In this document: one piece after another, positions 19,891 through 28,842 of the stretch
Layout of the letters: each line of letters starts with the position of its first letter
How positions within the stretch are numbered: position 1 is the stretch's first letter
Origin: Terriglobia bacterium
Lineage (GTDB): Bacteria > Acidobacteriota > Terriglobia > 20CM-2-55-15
DNA length: 64,000 nt
Reading direction: 5' to 3'
NCBI GenBank assembly: GCA_963664115.2
Contig: CAXWPJ010000010.1
Coordinates: forward strand, 480,001-544,000
Position numbers and translations under genes: made by a program
Notes under the pieces: model-generated
Seen by the model: the letters and a program-made list of their open reading frames with translations, nothing else
Database searches by the model: none
What the model was told of the DNA's origin: nothing

Positions 19891-22005
19891 ATGTTGGCTC
19901 AAGTTGATTTCAAAAGACGCTTGCTGTTGGGAGTCGCCCTCATCACTGTGCTCGTAGTCGGTGGCTGGAATCGTCCCGAGGCCGAAGCCCAGACCGTGTA
20001 CAGTCCGGCGCAGGCCGCGGCCGGCCAGACGGCCTACGGGGCCGAGTGTGCGATGTGCCATCAGAACGATCTCTCCGGTGCGGGCGGGGCACCTGCCCTG
20101 GCGGGAACCGACTTCGTCAACCTATGGCGCACCGAAAGCGTGGACGCATTCGTTCGGGCCACCCGGGCCTTGATGCCACCGAACAATCCGGGGGGACTCT
20201 CAGAACAGACCTATCTGAACATCACGGCGTTCATCCTGCAGGCCAACGGTGCCGTTTCTGGGAACCAGCCCCTCATCGCGGCGGTGAGCGCCGAGATCGG
20301 TGCGCTGGCCACGGGGATTGCGCCCGCAGGCTTGTTTGAAGGCGCGGCTCCGGTTGAAGCGGCCGAAGAACCTCAGGGGGTCACCGTCGCCGGAGTGGTG
20401 GAAAACTATGTCCCGGTGACCTCAGCGATGCTGGCCAATCCCGACCCCGCCGACTGGCTGATGATTCGGGGCAACTATCAGGCCTGGAACCACAGCCCCC
20501 TGACCGAGATCACGCGTGAAAACGTTGGCGACCTGCGGCTCCAGTGGGTGTGGTCTATGGAAGACGGTGTGAACCAGTCGGCCCCCATCGTCCACGACGG
20601 CGTCCTTTACTTTAACAGCCCCGGCAACGTCATCCGGGCCATGAACGCCACCGACGGCGAGCTCATCTGGGAGAGCCGTTTGGGTGGACCCAGCGACAGA
20701 ATGCGCGGCATAGCCATCACCGACGACAAGATCATCTACGCCCGACCCGACACTATGCTGACGGCGCTGGACGCGCGCAACGGTGCAATCGTCTGGGAAA
20801 CCCTCATGGGTGAAGGTTTCAGAAGCACCAGCGGGCCAATAGTCATCGGGGACACGATCGTCGCAGGGCTGGGCGGTTGCGGGACCTATAGAGAAGAGAA
20901 GTGCTACATCAGCGGCTATGACGCCACCGACGGACGGCAGATCTGGAAGTTCAATACGGTGGCCCAGGAAGGCGAACCCGGTGGAGACACCTGGGGAGGG
21001 CTGGATAACCTGCTCAGGGCCGGTGCGGAAACCTGGATCACGGGCAGCTATGATCCCGAGCTCAACAGGACCTATTGGGGTGTGGCCCAACCCAAGCCCT
21101 GGGTCCCCGCAACCCGTGGAAACAGCACTCGTGATGACGCTCTGTATTCGAGCACGACCCTGGCATTGAACCCCGATACCGGTGAGCTGGACTGGTACTT
21201 CCAGCATGCACCGGGCGAGGCGCTGGATCTGGACGAAGTCTTCGAGCGAGTTCTTGTGGATGCGGGCGGGCGGAAGCTCGTGTTCTCGATCGGGAAGCAC
21301 GGCATTTTGTGGAAGGTGGATCGCGAGTCCGGCGAGTATCTGGATCACACCGAAACCGTCTTCCAGAACGTCTTCGACAGCATTGATCCCGACACCGGGC
21401 GACCCCAGTATCGAATCGACATCGTCGAAGGGGAAACCGGCCAGTGGATCCAGGGTTGTCCATCGACGGAAGGCGGCCACAACTGGCAGGCGATGAGCTA
21501 CCACCCGGGAACCGAGCGTCTGATCATCCCCCTGAGTCAGAGTTGCCTCGAGATACGCGGCCGTCAGATCGCACTCGAAGCCGGCAGCGGTGGCAATGCC
21601 GCCGACAGGAAATGGTATGAGATGCCCGGGACGAACGGGAACGTGGGCAAACTGGCCGCATACGACGTGAACACGATGGAAGAAGTCTGGTCGTATGAGC
21701 AGCGGGCACCCTTCCTTACGTCCGTTGTCTCGACGGCCAGCAACATCCTGTTTGCCGGTGATCTGGATAGAAAGTTCCGGGCCTTCGACGTGGAGAACGG
21801 CGACATCCTCTGGGAGACGCGGCTGGGAACGTCCGTGCAGGGTTTCCCGCTGACGTTTGCCGTGGATGGGAAACAATACGTGGCGGTGATGACGGGGCTG
21901 GGCGGTGGCAGTCCGAGAGTGGTGCCGGGCCTGATCACCCGTGAGATCCAGCATCCCGCCAATGGAAACGCCCTCTGGGTTTTTGCCCTGCCGGATGGAA
22001 ATTAG
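19891..22005 (+). CDS. PQQ-dependent dehydrogenase with N-terminal cytochrome c domain
   Basis: Signal peptide, CAMCH haem motif, WLMIRGNY, repeated G..xW propeller motifs, [20 protein letters not shown]. Confidence 0.9.
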
Positions 22006-23078
22006 GATTACGGACTCGTGCATGACCGCCCCATGCTAAGAGTGGCAGCAGTGTGTGGGCGCTGACTCGTGGTCGGCGAAGGTCATGGTAGAAGAGGCCA
22101 ACGGAACGGAGGGGGGCGCGATGTCGGATACCATAGCGAAAGTAATTCAGGCAGTCCTGGTCGTTGTCATTCTGGGTGCACTTGGATTGGTTTGGTCGCA
22201 GGTCCAATCGGTCCGTACACATGTTGAAGAAGTGCCCGCTATCAAGCAATGGGTAGGATACGTCGATCCAATTTCTAACACGACCTCGCCAGCGGATAGA
22301 ATCGCCGCACTTGAAGCCTCGCTCTCGACCACGAGTCAGGAACTGTTAGAAGCTCAAGTCTTGCTGGAGCAGCTCTTCGGCCGCGTCATTGGAGAAGCAA
22401 CCCGCCAGATCCCCGACAACCTGGGGCCAAGTACCGATGTCGCTTTGTTCATCAATCTTACGGGTGATGCGAGCCGTTTTACCAACGAACAGGAACTCAC
22501 CGTTACAAACGTCGTTAGGCAGCTTAGTCAAACCATTCCGGTTTTAGGTGCCTATCGCTTCGAGCAGGGATACGCAGATGCGGAAATCATACTCACGATA
22601 GAAGCATCGCGACTGTTGGGTTGGGAGCTGAACGCAATGCGAATGGACGTAGCAGTTGAGCGAGTCGCTGACTGAACCCTGCGACATATAATCAACGACT
22701 CGGGTGGTCGACGCCTACCCAAGAGCGGAGGCAGGCTACCCGTCGTCCTGACTTTTAACCTCAGAACGTAGAAATTTGCGGAGACGGCTTGCGACTTCCG
22801 GGGGCACCTCCTGTTTGCCGGTGATCTGGATAGAAAGTTCCGGGCCTTCGACGTGGAGAACGGCGACATCCTCTGGGAGACGCGGCTGGGAACGTCCGTG
22901 CAGGGTTTCCCGCTGACGTTTGCCGTGGATGGGAAACAATACGTGGCGGTGATGACGGGGCTGGGCGGTGGCAGTCCGAGAGTGGTGCCGGGCCTGATCA
23001 CCCGTGAGATCCAGCATCCCGCCAATGGAAACGCCCTCTGGGTTTTTGCCCTGCCGGATGGAAATTAGGATTACGGAC
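21746..23078 (+). repeat. 270-bp identical direct repeat (21746-22015 and 22809-23078) flanking a 793-bp insert
   Basis: The 3' end of the PQQ dehydrogenase gene plus 10 bp is repeated at offset 1063; no mismatch seen. Confidence 0.95.
22121..22675 (+). CDS. Hypothetical membrane-anchored protein inside the repeat-flanked insert
   Basis: RBS GGAGG; N-terminal TM (VIQAVLVVVILGALGLVW), coiled-coil-like segment. Confidence 0.6.
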   Translation: MSDTIAKVIQAVLVVVILGALGLVWSQVQSVRTHVEEVPAIKQWVGYVDPISNTTSPADRIAALEASLSTTSQELLEAQVLLEQLFGRVIGEATRQIPDNLGPSTDVALFINLTGDASRFTNEQELTVTNVVRQLSQTIPVLGAYRFEQGYADAEIILTIEASRLLGWELNAMRMDVAVERVAD

Positions 23079-23454: not shown

Positions 23455-23471
23455 TTGGTATACGGAATGCT
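23455..23471 (+). promoter_or_regulatory. sigma54-type -24/-12 promoter of microprotein 1
   Basis: TTGGTATACGGAATGCT; GG(23457-8)-N10-GC(23469-70). Confidence 0.55.
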
Positions 23472-23502
23472 CCTTATTAGTAAGGAGTGACAGGAGATGG
23501 AC

Positions 23503-23634
23503 ATGATGTTGCAAACAATCATTCTTGTTACCGCAGCTACGATTTCCCTTGTAGCCGGCCTGGCTCTGGTCGGTGACGCTTTCAGGCGCATGTGTCACAA
23601 GACAGGGAAAGCCGATCACGTCATAACCTTTTAG
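23503..23634 (+). CDS. 43-aa single-TM microprotein 1
   Basis: MMLQTIILVTAATISLVAGLALVGDAFRRMCHKTGKADHVITF; RBS AGGAG; paralog downstream. Confidence 0.7.
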   Translation: MMLQTIILVTAATISLVAGLALVGDAFRRMCHKTGKADHVITF

Positions 23635-23696
23635 GTAATTGGGGTCAGAGCCCTATTTACCCAATTTCCCTCTGAAAACATCCCCACGCCTGCAGT

Positions 23697-23713
23697 TTGG
23701 AGCCCGGATTGCA
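23697..23713 (+). promoter_or_regulatory. sigma54-type -24/-12 promoter of microprotein 2
   Basis: TTGGAGCCCGGATTGCA; GG(23699-700)-N10-GC(23711-2). Confidence 0.6.
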
Positions 23714-23744
23714 CTCATTTAGGTGCGAGTAACTGGAGGTGGGT

Positions 23745-23876
23745 GTGACTTTCCAAACAATCATCTTGATTGTCGTCGCAGCGATACCGCTTGTAGCCGG
23801 GCTGGTGCTGGTAGCTGACGCCGTAAGGCGCCTGTTTCACAGGAAACGGAATACGCATCACGCCTTACACATTTGA
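23745..23876 (+). CDS. 43-aa single-TM microprotein 2
   Basis: GTG start, RBS GGAGG; MTFQTIILIVVAAIPLVAGLVLVADAVRRLFHRKRNTHHALHI; 21/43 identical to microprotein 1 without gaps. Confidence 0.7.
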   Translation: MTFQTIILIVVAAIPLVAGLVLVADAVRRLFHRKRNTHHALHI

Positions 23877-23958
23877 AGAGAGTCGGTGTGTTGATGTGCC
23901 ACAAAGGCAAGATCGGCCGCTTGCGCCTGTCTCGGCATGCCATCGATTCAAATCTGGC

Positions 23959-24284
23959 TAGCAGCCCGTGGCAGAAGTATCGAGGGCCGCGCGCGGGGGT
24001 CTTCGGGTTGCGGGCGCGAAGTGAGGAGCGGGCACCGAGGTTTGAAACCGAGGCCGCTGGCGCCGTTTTTACATCGTGACCGACGAGTGACAAAGCCTGC
24101 GGCCCGGACCCCCCTGCGCCCAAAGGGTTACGGCGAAACGGGGCTGTCTTCGTTGTCGCCGACTCCTCCCAATGAATGAGCATTGTCTCGTCGTCGTGAC
24201 GTCGCGTCGACGCCAAGGCGTCTCCTAGAATCCAGCCCCGTTTGGCCGTAACGCGGCCCTCGAGACCTCTGCCACGGGCTGCTA
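23959..24284. mobile_element. MITE-like non-autonomous element (about 326 bp)
   Basis: About 33-bp terminal IRs TAGCAGCCCGTGGCAGAAGTATCGAGGGCCGCG / CGCGGCCCTCGAGACCTCTGCCACGGGCTGCTA, TA at both ends, internal IR GTTACGGCGAAACGGGGCTG / CAGCCCCGTTTGGCCGTAAC. Confidence 0.75.
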
Positions 24285-24902: not shown

Positions 24903-25685
24903 GTGATCCGACGCGCGGGGTATCGTAGGAGTGTGATTGAAGACGGAGTGATTGAAGATAGCACCCCGATATGGCCCCAGCGGCCAGCGCTTTTTCTGGA
25001 TCTTGACGGAACTGTGCTGGACTTTGCAGACGCACCCGGGGGCGTCGTGGTTTCAGAAAGAGTCCGCGACTTGCTGGGTCGGCTGCATGCGGTTACCGGC
25101 GGGGCGATCGCCTTCGTCAGCGGCCGGACCATGGACGACCTCGATCACCTCCTCGCACCACATAAGTTTGCTGTGGCCGCGGTTCATGGCCTGGAACTCA
25201 GGGACGGTGAAGGTCGCATCACGCGTGCGGAAGTAGACAGCGAGCGACTGGCAGAAATCGAACAAAGCCTAGATCGTTTCGTCCGGCAGAACCCGGAGAC
25301 CTTGCTGGAACACAAGGGAGCGAGCCTCGCACTCCATTACCGAAAGCGACCGGAGCTGGAAGAGGCCGTGATCGCTCTCGTCGAAGAAACACTGGCCGCA
25401 CTGGGTTCGAATCTGCAGGTGCTGCGAGGCAACAAGGTGATCGAGATCAAACCGGAAGGCGGCGACAAGGGCAGCGCTATTGCCCGCTTCATGAAAGACC
25501 CGCCGTTTAACGATCGAACACCAGTTTTTATCGGCGACGATGCCACCGACGAGGACGGTTTTCGGACGGTCAACGCACTCGGAGGCGTGTCGGTCAAGGT
25601 GAACTCCGGTGAATCCGCAGCCGCAACGCGACTGCCCGATGTGGATGCTGTGTTGCACTGGCTTGAGGCATTGCTGTCGTCATGA
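24903..25685 (+). CDS. otsB: Trehalose-6-phosphate phosphatase
   Basis: HAD motifs FLDLDGT, VSGR, LHYR, IGDDATDEDGF; start may be a downstream GTG. Confidence 0.9.
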   Translation: MIRRAGYRRSVIEDGVIEDSTPIWPQRPALFLDLDGTVLDFADAPGGVVVSERVRDLLGRLHAVTGGAIAFVSGRTMDDLDHLLAPHKFAVAAVHGLELRDGEGRITRAEVDSERLAEIEQSLDRFVRQNPETLLEHKGASLALHYRKRPELEEAVIALVEETLAALGSNLQVLRGNKVIEIKPEGGDKGSAIARFMKDPPFNDRTPVFIGDDATDEDGFRTVNALGGVSVKVNSGESAAATRLPDVDAVLHWLEALLSS

Positions 25686-27478
25686 GTAGCCTGGAACTGG
25701 GTGTCATCGGGAACTGCCAGATCGCTGTATTGGTGGACCCGCGTGGGCGTTATGTCTGGGGCAGCTTTCCACGCATCGACAGCGATCCCTTCTTCTGCTC
25801 CCTATTGAAGTCAGAGTCGAACGACGCGGCCGATCAAAGCGGCTTCTTCGCCATCGATCTGGTGGACTTCCAAAGCTCCGAGCAAAGCTATGTCGACAAT
25901 ACGGCCATCCTGAACACCACCTTGACCGACAGCTCGGGCGGCAAGGTTCGGATCACCGACTACGCACCCCGCTATCAAAAGTTCGGGCGGAGCTTTCACC
26001 CCATCATGGTCGTACGCCACATCACGCCGGTTGCGGGCGCGCCTGCATTAAGAATCCGCTTGAGACCCGCCGCCGACTACGGGGCCCGCACACCCGACGT
26101 CGCCCATGGCAGCAACCATGTTCGCTTCAGCAACGGTCACTTCACGTTGCGGCTGACGACGAACGCGCCGCTGGCCGCTGTGCTCGAAGAGCGGGTCATC
26201 GTGCTCGAAAAATCCATCACCCTTATGCTCGGCCCCGATGAATCCCTCACCGAGAGTCCCCACAATATTGACCGCGCAATGTATGGGGAAACGAAGACGT
26301 ACTGGGAAAACTGGACGCGTGCCTTGTCGATTCCCTTCGAGTGGCAGGAGGAAGTCATCCGGGCCGCCATCACGTTGAAGCTCTGCACCTATGAAGATAC
26401 CGGCGCAGTCCTGGCGGCACTGACGACTTCCATACCGGAAGCACCCGATAGCGGCCGCAACTGGGACTACCGCTACTGCTGGCTGAGGGACAGCTACTAC
26501 ACCGTCCAGGCCCTCAATAGCCTTGGTGCGACCAAGACGATGCAGCAGTTCCTGGCCTACATTTTCAATCTCGTCGCCGAACACGCGGCAACAAAACGTC
26601 TGCAACCCGTGTACGGCATTTCCGGCGAGCCGGCACTGACGGAATCCACAGTCGAGAGTCTCGAAGGCTATCGCGGAATGGGTCCGGTCCGTGTGGGTAA
26701 CGACGCGTACAGACAGCAGCAGAATGACGTCTACGGTGCGACCGTCCTGGCATCGACGCAGAGTTTCTTTGATCGCCGGCTGGTCGAGGGCGGAGGCCAA
26801 CGCGAGTTCGAGCGACTCGAATCCCTGGGCCTCCGGGCCGCGGAGGCATTCGATCAACCCGACGCCGGCCCCTGGGAATTTCGCGGCCACAACGATGTGC
26901 ATACCTACTCCAGCGTCATGTGCTGGGCGGCGTGCGATCGTTTGTCACGTATCGGGGCCCATCTCCACTTGCCCGACCGCGCCGAATACTGGAAAGACCA
27001 GGCGAACAGCATCAGGGAAACAATCATTGCCCGCGCATGGAGTGAAGAAAAGAACAGCTTCGTGGCGACCTTCGGGGGCGATCAACTCGATGCGAGCCTC
27101 CTGACGCTTCCTGATCTGGGTTTCATCGCTCCCGATGACCCGAAGTTTCTAGCGACCTTGGCGGCCATCGAGAGCGAGCTGCGGCGGGGACCCTATGTTT
27201 TTCGCTACACCAACTCCGATGATTTCGGCAGGCCTCAAACGGCATTCAACATCTGCACGTTCTGGTACATCAATGCCCTGGCTGCTGTGGGACGGGATGC
27301 TGAAGCACGGGTGTTGTTCCAGAACATGCTCGATCGTCGTAACGCGCTGGGACTGCTTTCGGAAGATCTGGATCCGGAGAGCGGTGAGCTGTGGGGTAAC
27401 TTTCCACAGACCTACAGCATGGTGGGCGTCATAACGGCGGCAATGCGCCTCAGCCAGACATGGGAGCAGGCATTGTGA
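25682..27478 (+). CDS. Glycoside hydrolase family 15 (trehalase/glucoamylase-like)
   Basis: TTSIPE...RNWDYRYCWLRD, PVRVGNDA, GLLSED, GNFPQTYS. Confidence 0.9.
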   Translation: MSSLELGVIGNCQIAVLVDPRGRYVWGSFPRIDSDPFFCSLLKSESNDAADQSGFFAIDLVDFQSSEQSYVDNTAILNTTLTDSSGGKVRITDYAPRYQKFGRSFHPIMVVRHITPVAGAPALRIRLRPAADYGARTPDVAHGSNHVRFSNGHFTLRLTTNAPLAAVLEERVIVLEKSITLMLGPDESLTESPHNIDRAMYGETKTYWENWTRALSIPFEWQEEVIRAAITLKLCTYEDTGAVLAALTTSIPEAPDSGRNWDYRYCWLRDSYYTVQALNSLGATKTMQQFLAYIFNLVAEHAATKRLQPVYGISGEPALTESTVESLEGYRGMGPVRVGNDAYRQQQNDVYGATVLASTQSFFDRRLVEGGGQREFERLESLGLRAAEAFDQPDAGPWEFRGHNDVHTYSSVMCWAACDRLSRIGAHLHLPDRAEYWKDQANSIRETIIARAWSEEKNSFVATFGGDQLDASLLTLPDLGFIAPDDPKFLATLAAIESELRRGPYVFRYTNSDDFGRPQTAFNICTFWYINALAAVGRDAEARVLFQNMLDRRNALGLLSEDLDPESGELWGNFPQTYSMVGVITAAMRLSQTWEQAL

Positions 27479-28842
27479 CGCGACTCGTTGCCGTGTCGAA
27501 CCGCGTCGTGGCGCCGAAACGCGGCAAGACTTCGGGTGGTCTGGCTGTAGCCCTCTGGTCCGCCTTGCAGGATCACGGCGGCCTCTGGTTTGGCTGGAGC
27601 GGTGAGACGACACTCGAGGAGCCCGCTGACCCGAAGGTGTCGAAGTTCGGCAACGTTCGTTTTGTCACGACGGATCTGAACAAAGAGGATTTCGAAGACT
27701 ATTACAACGGTTTCGGCAACGACACCTTGTGGCCTCTGCTCCATTTCATGCTCGGCTACCTCAAGTACGACCGTGTCCAATACGATGCCTATTGCCGGGT
27801 GAACGCGTTTTTCGCCACCAAGCTCGTTGACTTCCTCACACCCGATGACGTCATCTGGGTCCACGACTATCATTTGATACCGCTCGGGGCCGAACTGCGG
27901 CAGCGGGGTGTCACCCAGCCCATCGGATTCTTTCTGCATGTCCCGTTCCCGAACTTCGACGTGATCCATGCCCTGCCCTGCTACAGGGAGATCCTCGAAG
28001 CTCTGGCCCGCTACGACGTTGTCGGCTTTCAGACCGACAGAGATCTCTCGTCGTTCCAGGACTGCCTCACGCAAGCCGAGATCGGCGGTACGCTCTTACC
28101 CGACGGTCGGATCACAGCATTCGGGCGCACCTTTCGTGCCGCAGTATTTCCTATCAGTATCGATGTGGATGCATGCGGGTCGCTGGCTTCTCAGAACATG
28201 GAGCACTCACAGGTACGGCGCCTGGCGAAAAGCGTCGGCGATAGACGTGTGATCATCGGCGTCGATCGACTCGACTACAGCAAGGGGCTCGAACTGCGTT
28301 TTCGAGCTTTCGAAAATTTGCTGATGAACCATCCGGAAATGCGGGGGCGCGTTTCGCTGCTGCAGATTGCGCCGCCGACGCGGGTGGGCGTGAGGACCTA
28401 CGATAGAATTCGCGAAAGACTCGAACAGGCATCGGGCAACATCAACGGCCGATTTGCCGACATCGACTGGGTTCCGATTCGGTATCTAAATAGACTCTAC
28501 GAACGCCCTGTCCTGATGTCGCTATTTCGGCTGGCGGGCGTCGGGCTCGTGACCTCGATTCGCGACGGCATGAATCTCGTTGCCAAAGAATATGTCGCCA
28601 CCCAGGATCCCGAAGATCCGGGCATGCTCGTCCTATCGACGCTGGCGGGCGCCGCCAGGGAACTGACCGCAGCCGTCCTGGTCAATCCTTACGATCAGGA
28701 CGGGGTCGCCGAAGGTATTCGCAAAGCGATCGAGATGAGGATCGAAGAGCGGCAGGAACGTTATGCCGATATGATTGCCGTGTTACGCAAGAACGACATC
28801 CACACCTGGCGAAGGAACTTCGTTACGGCACTGACGGAATAG
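27475..28842 (+). CDS. otsA: Trehalose-6-phosphate synthase
   Basis: [43 protein letters not shown]. Confidence 0.95.

What the first reader, a model, noticed from the sequence alone, without database searches (positions are those of the whole stretch)
23455..23876. Twin 43-aa membrane microproteins, each with an identically spaced sigma54-type promoter
Seen: two ORFs below the track's size cut-off, both 43 aa, 21/43 identical without gaps (QTIIL...LVAGLxLVxDAxRRxxH), with one hydrophobic helix and a basic His-containing tail. Each has an RBS and a TTGG-N10-GC motif ending exactly 33 bp before the start codon, although the surrounding DNA has diverged. A hairpin CTCCTTA-TTAG-TAAGGAG precedes the first. 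Inference: a conserved family of sigma54-controlled small membrane proteins (regulators of a membrane complex, or type I toxin-like) that standard annotation would miss.
Basis: partly seen in the sequence, partly recalled or inferred. Interest (0 to 1): 0.72.

Follow-up and report, generated by a model that had tools for sequence, protein, structure and literature searches.

The report
Orphaned sigma54-driven membrane microprotein twins
Two side-by-side copies of a tiny conserved gene encode a predicted membrane peptide of a family not found in the libraries searched; in related bacteria it sits in a likely stress-response gene set with a likely dedicated activator, and this genome keeps the peptide and its predicted promoter although no copy of that activator or of the main partner genes was found in it.

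Summary
In detail: two 43-codon ORFs (20/43 identical, 21 with the initiator Met), each with a GG-N10-GC motif 32 nt before the start. The equal spacing is not independent evidence: the ORFs are a 242-bp-offset tandem repeat that includes the promoter. Relatives carry the real evidence. Homologues occur in 14 of 35 genomes of the family and in none of 400 sampled from the wider phylum; 17 of 24 have a sigma54 motif upstream versus 44 of 1472 control genes; rpoN is present; dN/dS between species is 0.41-0.55. In other genera the gene heads a cassette: GAF-type sigma54 activator, STAS protein, this peptide, a second membrane peptide and an outer-membrane barrel. A four-box TTCGCGAA element lies about 50 bp before cassette promoters and also before thioredoxin, RND efflux and oxidoreductase genes. 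Activator, element, STAS, second peptide and barrel were not found in this genome. Best reading: a sigma54-induced envelope-stress accessory microprotein, kept as an orphan. No expression data, no partner shown. A type I toxin is not supported.

The parts
23456..23471 (+). sigma54-type -24/-12 motif of copy 1 (GG 23457-58, GC 23469-70); weak version, 8 of 12 consensus matches
   Evidence: the orthologous site in G002 scores 17.0 bits against 10.6 here
23470..23487 (+). inverted repeat CTCCTTA-TTAG-TAAGGAG; straddles the predicted transcription start (about 23482), so it could form only in DNA or in read-through RNA; role unexplained
   Evidence: a G-U-containing version folds in G002, a different fold in copy 2
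23482..23496 (+). two Shine-Dalgarno-like runs (23482-87 before the ATG at 23497; 23492-96 before the ATG at 23503)
   Evidence: sequence
23503..23634 (+). copy 1 of microprotein 'A', 43 aa (45 from 23497), predicted single transmembrane helix and basic tail
23636..23668 (.). one arm of a dispersed palindromic repeat (REP/REPIN-like, label recalled), at the junction between the copies
   Evidence: 34 hits in the genome, many of those printed as inverted pairs; also in the four congeners
23698..23713 (+). sigma54-type -24/-12 motif of copy 2; 9 of 12 consensus matches, among the top 14 sites of the genome
23735..23739 (+). Shine-Dalgarno GGAGG of copy 2
   Evidence: sequence
23745..23876 (+). 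copy 2 of microprotein 'A', 43 aa (45 from 23739)
23858..23900 (+). possible decayed 5' end of partner gene 'B', which overlaps or follows the stop of A in other genera; marginal
   Evidence: shuffle p 0.057 here, 0.033 in G002, 0.113 in G001, 0.44 behind copy 1
23959..24284 (.). MITE-like element with 33-nt terminal inverted repeats, downstream of copy 2; not part of the unit

Best explanation
The two ORFs are conserved paralogues, likely made by tandem duplication of a promoter-plus-gene unit, that encode a predicted single-pass inner-membrane microprotein, likely switched on by sigma54 under envelope or chemical stress and likely acting as a small accessory that tunes a membrane protein rather than as a toxin. 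Shown: the frames, the family, its narrow range, the promoter motif, rpoN, and the gene context. In other genera of the family the gene (A) sits in a cassette: GAF-AAA sigma54 activator, STAS protein, A, a second single-pass peptide (B), an outer-membrane beta-barrel, often a 60-aa acidic protein (D) and an RND pump. STAS, A and the barrel each have their own -24/-12 motif; B mostly has none. Inferred: the activator binds a four-box TTCGCGAA element about 50 bp before its promoters; the same element precedes thioredoxin, efflux, oxidoreductase and small Cys-rich genes, which points to a detoxification or redox and envelope response. The helix would insert N-out with the invariant Gly, Leu and Asp and the Arg run at the cytoplasmic face, forming a contact for a partner. 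In the window's genus the activator, element, STAS, B and barrel were not found, while A and its motif persist under weak purifying selection, so A is likely driven here by another activator and likely serves a partner outside the cassette.
For: Family: 58 proteins at E<=0.01 among 6457 candidates; 15 of 35 family genomes at E<=0.02, 14 credible after dropping G011. Invariant G19, L22, D25 in 63 sequences. Motif >=8/12 in 17 of 24 members against 44 of 1472 long-ORF controls; >=10/12 in 11 of 24 against 4 of 1472. rpoN E 1.4e-55. The matrix trained on other genera also ranks sites before ORFs that look like pilin, flagellar and nitrate-reduction genes near the top of this genome (those labels are my reading of the N-termini). 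dN/dS 0.41-0.55 between species, bootstrap pN<pS 0.946-0.994; pN<pS in 103 of 105 family pairs. Neutral simulation: all four congeneric copies open and hydrophobic in 1.4% or 0.03% of runs, motif kept in 4.5% or 0.2%. One helix, residues 2-36, pLDDT 84. Cassette domains. Motif before STAS 6 of 8, A 9 of 11, B 2 of 11, barrel 12 of 12, D 1 of 7 in 16 loci. Four-box element: 12 of 15 sites score 27-51 bits left-one-out; found in 5 of 5 cassette-bearing genomes tested and 0 of 5 genomes of the window's genus, reversed control 0. Genes behind it. Precedents: AcrZ, KdpF (PMC12648545, passages), PspB/PspC (PMC5596341, passages).
Against: No RNA, ribosome or peptide data. No partner is identified; the accessory role rests on anatomy and company only. 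dN/dS is two to five times that of neighbouring genes (0.10-0.22) and 0.70 between the twins, with bootstrap only 0.83. An open frame alone is not significant (28% or 11% of neutral runs), and the simulation starts from present-day sequences and ignores indels. 7 of 24 members lack a motif at >=8/12. A was not found in 2 of 5 congeneric genomes, one with an insertion sequence at the site. No shared element was found upstream of A promoters, and the element scores at most 2.0 bits near A in G000, G001 and G002, so what activates the window's promoters is unknown. The cassette's RND pumps have no close orthologue here (best 25%). The genomes are kin, so counts across them overstate.
Confidence: 0.55

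Rival explanations
1. A acts alone on the membrane, lowering potential or growth like a stress-induced depolarising peptide (YohP-like) or a type I toxin (TisB/Hok-like), with sigma54's tight off state replacing an antitoxin RNA.
For: Size, one helix and charged tail fit such peptides (PMC12648545 passages; PMC12719787 abstract). A persists and is duplicated without its cassette partners. Up to 4 matches per genome in genus g7.
Against: No antisense sigma70-like promoter in 10 of 11 loci tested, including all four congeneric copies; predicted leaders are 17-30 nt, with little room for translational locking. No Rfam match at gathering score, no PADLOC match, no phage match. In the cassette it is the first gene of an operon with B.
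Confidence: 0.2
2. In this genus the twins are relics: the cassette was lost, the promoters have no activator, and the genes are decaying slowly.
For: Activator clade, element, STAS, B and barrel not found. Copy 1's motif is weakened. dN/dS 0.70 between the twins. Not found in G003 and G004.
Against: Three species keep frame, hydrophobicity and motif over synonymous distances of 0.34-0.89, while the B region behind them is not readable as B. G001's motif (20.6 bits) outscores every site in this genome. Relatives at 91% and 83% identity to the two copies share a longest-contig length, which suggests a preserved pair (not fetched).
Confidence: 0.15
3. A is a cis-acting leader or translational coupler for gene B, and its peptide does not matter much.
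For: B starts 14 nt before to 10 nt after A's stop in the ten loci that hold both, and mostly has no promoter of its own.
Against: Conserved positions are membrane-helix features, not regulatory codon runs. A occurs without B in the window's genus and in several g7 loci, and B occurs without a detected A in G024 and G012.
Confidence: 0.07
4. The ORFs and motifs are chance features of a duplicated intergenic stretch.
For: GG-N10-GC alone is very common (56,191 positions in the genome), and the duplication explains the spacing.
Against: Family-wide conservation, selection and motif enrichment.
Confidence: 0.03

Closest known systems
Phage shock protein system (PspF, PspA, PspB, PspC; PMC5596341, passages read)
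   Same: A sigma54 activator beside small inner-membrane proteins in an envelope-stress setting.
   Different: No sequence match of A or B to Psp families; the activator has a GAF domain; a STAS protein and a beta-barrel are present and no PspA was seen in the loci annotated; several genes carry their own promoter.
Small accessory membrane proteins AcrZ and KdpF (PMC12648545, passages read)
   Same: Under 50 aa, one helix; RND pumps lie in or beside several cassettes.
   Different: No profile match; the window's genome lacks close orthologues of those pumps; AcrZ is not known to me as sigma54-controlled (recalled).
Type I toxins (TisB, Hok/Gef, Ibs; PMC12648545, passages) and YohP (PMC12719787, abstract only)
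   Same: Short hydrophobic peptide with one helix and a charged tail.
   Different: No antisense promoter or known RNA found, short leaders, operonic position, no profile match.
PF28111 Trnsprt_adja_ssu (putative transporter small subunit)
   Same: 39-42 aa; appears among feature look-alikes (0.80 and 0.84).
   Different: Scores are under the tool's 0.9 lead level; no member of 63 matched a family of that name in NCBIfam or the Pfam copy held, which may not hold this model.
GAF-type enhancer-binding proteins (FhlA, NorR, AcoR)
   Same: GAF plus sigma54 AAA+ architecture (FhlA best NCBIfam match for one C-terminal piece, far below cut-off). An AcoR site containing TTCGCGAA is reported in PMC12648084 (passages).
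   Different: The reported AcoR site has a single box; here four boxes at offsets about 0, 12, 20, 32. The cassette activators form their own long-branched clade.

Membership tests
sigma54-dependent promoter | GG at -24 and GC at -12 with exact spacing and consensus flanks (consensus recalled) | tested here: met
   copy 2 strong, copy 1 weak
sigma54-dependent promoter | rpoN and enhancer-binding proteins in the genome | tested here: met
   rpoN; 16 activator-like frames, 11 with G[AS]FTGA
sigma54-dependent promoter | an activator binding site near the promoter | tested here: inconclusive
   four-box element near A in cassette loci, none near A in G000, G001, G002; no other shared motif
sigma54-dependent promoter | transcription start about 12 nt after the GC, dependent on rpoN | not testable with these tools
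   no RNA holder listed
type I toxin-antitoxin system | small hydrophobic single-helix protein | tested here: met
type I toxin-antitoxin system | antisense or paired antitoxin RNA | tested here: inconclusive
   no sigma70-like antisense promoter in 10 of 11 loci, none in the window scan, no Rfam family; these scans can miss real RNAs
type I toxin-antitoxin system | homology to a known toxin family | tested here: not met
   best related hit Hol_Tox in 1 of 63 members at E 0.039
type I toxin-antitoxin system | toxicity on overexpression | not testable with these tools
   bench test
Psp system (PspB/PspC) | homology to PspB or PspC, with PspA and PspF in the locus | tested here: not met
AcrZ-type RND accessory | homology to AcrZ | tested here: not met
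AcrZ-type RND accessory | binds an RND transporter | not tested

The most novel reading that the evidence does not exclude
A, B, the STAS protein and the GAF activator form an undescribed membrane-sensing sigma54 circuit, a functional counterpart of the Psp response built from unrelated parts, with its own four-box enhancer; the window's genus dismantled the circuit but kept, rewired and duplicated the microprotein, which marks it as the effector that matters.
Probability: 0.15. Interest if true: 0.72.

Novelty: new variant of a known kind. Interest (0 to 1): 0.45.

Why it matters
It adds a small-protein family and a predicted sigma54 regulon, with activator, enhancer and targets, in a bacterial family probably within Acidobacteriota (inferred from record titles), where the library searches found no description. 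The enhancer, promoter and activator can be rebuilt as a reporter in a laboratory strain, so the circuit is testable without culturing the host. The orphan state is a natural experiment on how a sigma54 promoter survives loss of its activator. The reach is limited: one family, no function shown.

Tried and rejected
Complex prediction of A with B (G045 pair, with alignments): no verdict, score 0.02 against a mark of 0.32; not evidence either way. Expression: no RNA holder listed; the one possibly-RNA run laid (X1) covered only the repeat element. Contigs of three DNA-type runs (X5, X6, X7) cover both ORFs with no listed difference inside them, too close to inform selection. A and B as paralogues: hhalign probability 2.7%, rejected. 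D as a known antitoxin fold (a recalled resemblance): no Pfam match in 9 of 9 at E<=5. Pfam, NCBIfam, PDB, PADLOC, phage records: nothing above cut-off. Metagenome scan with the narrow alignment: 1 locus, judged spurious, scan incomplete. DUF2585 search in genome contigs returned 43 distant loci that I did not examine for A. Shared dyads, 7-mers or an IHF-like site upstream of A promoters: none above shuffles. The nearest GAF activator in this genome (C2:877474) lies behind nitrate-assimilation-like genes and outside the cassette clade. Rows dropped: of 29 loci, five were left out of the promoter count (G010c truncated duplicate; G044a, G011, G012, G175 judged false hits); P0013 and P0015 of 14 are repetitive non-members; 3 of 15 enhancer sites scored low left-one-out (12.8, 1.8, -13.6). 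The frame comparison (0 of 15 stops in the coding frame, 5-15 in others) is circular for the coding frame and was not used.

Full report
Observation. Both ORFs exist at 23503-23634 and 23745-23876, 43 aa, 20 of 43 identical (21 with the initiator Met), each 32 nt behind a TTGG-N10-GC motif. In-frame starts two codons earlier give 45 aa, and databases hold both forms. The copies are offset by 242 bp and are alike from the motif to the stop (11/16, 18/32, 90/129) but not outside (16/70, 11/40). The pair is therefore one repeated promoter-plus-gene unit, and the equal spacing is inherited. No third copy was found in the genome by tblastn or profile. One arm of a dispersed palindromic repeat sits at the junction.

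Is it a gene? Single copies with frame and motif lie beside the same DUF2585 gene in G002 and G001. G003 has an insertion sequence at that place and G004 gave no credible match. Iterated profiles found matches in 15 of 35 family genomes, 14 credible, in 1 of 372 class genomes outside the family, a hit that I judged false, and in 0 of 400 phylum genomes. These are samples, and a 43-position profile has limited reach. The protein search gave 58 relatives among 6457 candidates, named at most 'hypothetical protein'. Across 63 sequences G19, L22 and D25 are invariant and L16 and R29 nearly so. dN/dS is 0.41-0.55 between species and 0.70 between the twins, against 0.10-0.22 for two neighbours; pN<pS in 103 of 105 family pairs. 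In a neutral simulation an open frame alone is unremarkable (28% or 11%), but frame plus hydrophobicity is rare (1.4% or 0.03%). AlphaFold gives one helix, residues 2-36. A tree joins copy 1 with G002 at moderate support (90/85), so copy 2 may predate that split.

Is it a sigma54 promoter? rpoN is present. With a recalled consensus, 17 of 24 members reach 8 of 12 matches within 75 nt, against 44 of 1472 long-ORF controls; 7 do not (five further loci were dropped). Nine members have the motif 28-32 nt before the start, and some have the start only 12-16 nt behind it, which would be nearly leaderless. On a matrix from 33 sites of other genera, copy 2 ranks among the top 14 positions of the genome and copy 1 among the top 481. 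If +1 lies 12 nt after the GC (recalled convention), it falls at about 23482, inside the hairpin, so the hairpin cannot form in that transcript.

Context in relatives. In genera g7, g5 and g6, A is often followed at once by B (45-81 aa, one helix) and then by an outer-membrane beta-barrel, and is often preceded by a GAF-AAA activator and a STAS protein; an acidic 60-aa protein D, RND pumps or a CHAD protein follow. In 16 loci a motif precedes STAS 6 of 8, A 9 of 11, B 2 of 11, barrel 12 of 12 and D 1 of 7. So 'each small gene has its own sigma54 motif' is a habit of this regulon. A four-box TTCGCGAA element lies 48-52 bp before most barrel and several other promoters. It usually lies inside B's 3' half, 210-280 bp downstream of A's start, so part of B's apparent protein conservation may be DNA constraint (inference). 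A pattern search found it in G046, G043, G045, G010 and G018 and in none of G000-G004, with no control matches. Further sites precede thioredoxin, an efflux adaptor, a short-chain oxidoreductase, D and small Cys-rich ORFs. That the cassette activator binds this element is inferred from co-occurrence. A second subfamily of A lies back to back with D, without the element, near amidase-like and glycosyltransferase genes. Three loci of another family have activator, STAS and barrel in the same order, two of them with a different small hydrophobic ORF in between.

The window's genus. B, barrel, STAS and the element were not found in G000 or its four congeners (95-98% complete). None of 16 activator-like frames of G000 falls in the cassette clade (100/100 support), and congeners' best matches are 46-52% against 83% in G046. 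D survives elsewhere in G000 with a strong motif. A faint trace of B's start may follow copy 2 (p 0.057). The cassette's RND pumps have no close orthologue here.

Mechanism. I commit to a sigma54-induced accessory microprotein of an envelope or detoxification response (0.55). The gene and promoter parts are well supported (about 0.9); the accessory role is inferred from anatomy, company and precedent. Rivals: a self-acting depolarising or toxic peptide (0.2), a decaying relic (0.15), a cis-acting leader (0.07), chance (0.03). No expression data were available.

Known systems and literature. No family, structure, defence or phage match passed a cut-off; atlas look-alikes stayed under 0.9. Paper searches for this family or regulon found no description: (0 papers; 2; 0; 1; 6; 3), with background searches; the library lacks most subscription papers and I read no supplements, where lists of small proteins could bear on novelty. 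Read as passages: PMC3162934 (sigma54 linked to the cell exterior), PMC5596341, PMC7175178, PMC12648084, PMC5874634 (a primer only), PMC12648545. Abstract and outline only: PMC12719787. All others: search listing only. The labels REP/REPIN, MITE, and the sigma54 consensus are recalled. The scan held no look-alike of this sequence; word searches returned other sigma54 units on other DNA. The lineage is probably Acidobacteriota, class Terriglobia, inferred from titles of records with related barrels.

Verdict. A real, undescribed microprotein family in a predicted sigma54 regulon, seen here as a duplicated orphan: new variant of a known kind, interest 0.45.

Noticed in passing
window 21743-22015 and 22806-23078: Exact 273-nt direct repeat of the 3' end of the PQQ dehydrogenase gene, flanking a 206-aa ORF (22055-22675) with an N-terminal hydrophobic stretch and no family; looks like an integration or duplication scar.
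   Followed up: no
window 23959-24284: MITE-like element with 33-nt terminal inverted repeats; 51 hits in the genome, 5 of 200 nt or more; a similar sequence seems to split DUF2585 in G002.
   Followed up: partly
window 23636-23668: Single arm of a genus-wide palindromic repeat that elsewhere often occurs as inverted pairs 40-60 nt apart.
   Followed up: partly
G000:C12:259049-259348 (-); L248: 75-aa acidic protein of unnamed family D with a strong sigma54 motif, upstream of amidase-like, glycosyltransferase, DUF4922 and SpoIID genes; D was found in 21 of 35 family genomes by the first profile, up to 6 copies, many ending in Ala-His-Ala or Gly-His-Ala.
   Followed up: partly
L125:3800-3840, L127:3674-3714, L124:10670-10710 and others: Four-box TTCGCGAA element embedded in the coding sequence of gene B, a likely enhancer about 50 bp before the barrel promoter.
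   Followed up: yes
L155:616, L156:676, L127 (G043), L128 (G019): Family members whose start codon lies 12-16 nt after the sigma54 GC, i.e. predicted leaderless or nearly leaderless sigma54 transcripts.
   Followed up: no
G000:C9:869596 (-): Strong sigma54-like site (16.9 bits) 14 nt before an ORF that reads like lpxC (label from recall).
   Followed up: no
G000:C9:1190504 (-): sigma54-like site 29 nt before a 52-aa ORF that looks like a small helix-turn-helix protein.
   Followed up: no
L261:1640-1834, L253:5151-5348: 65-66 aa Cys-rich ORFs without Pfam match behind the four-box element and a sigma54 motif.
   Followed up: no
window 24903-28842: Trehalose cluster (phosphatase, GH15 hydrolase, synthase) next to DUF2585, kept in G001 and G002; no sigma54 motif was listed in front of it.
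   Followed up: no
genome-wide, G000: A dispersed repeat whose translation reads the same short peptide gave many identical weak tblastn hits on most contigs; not characterised.
   Followed up: no
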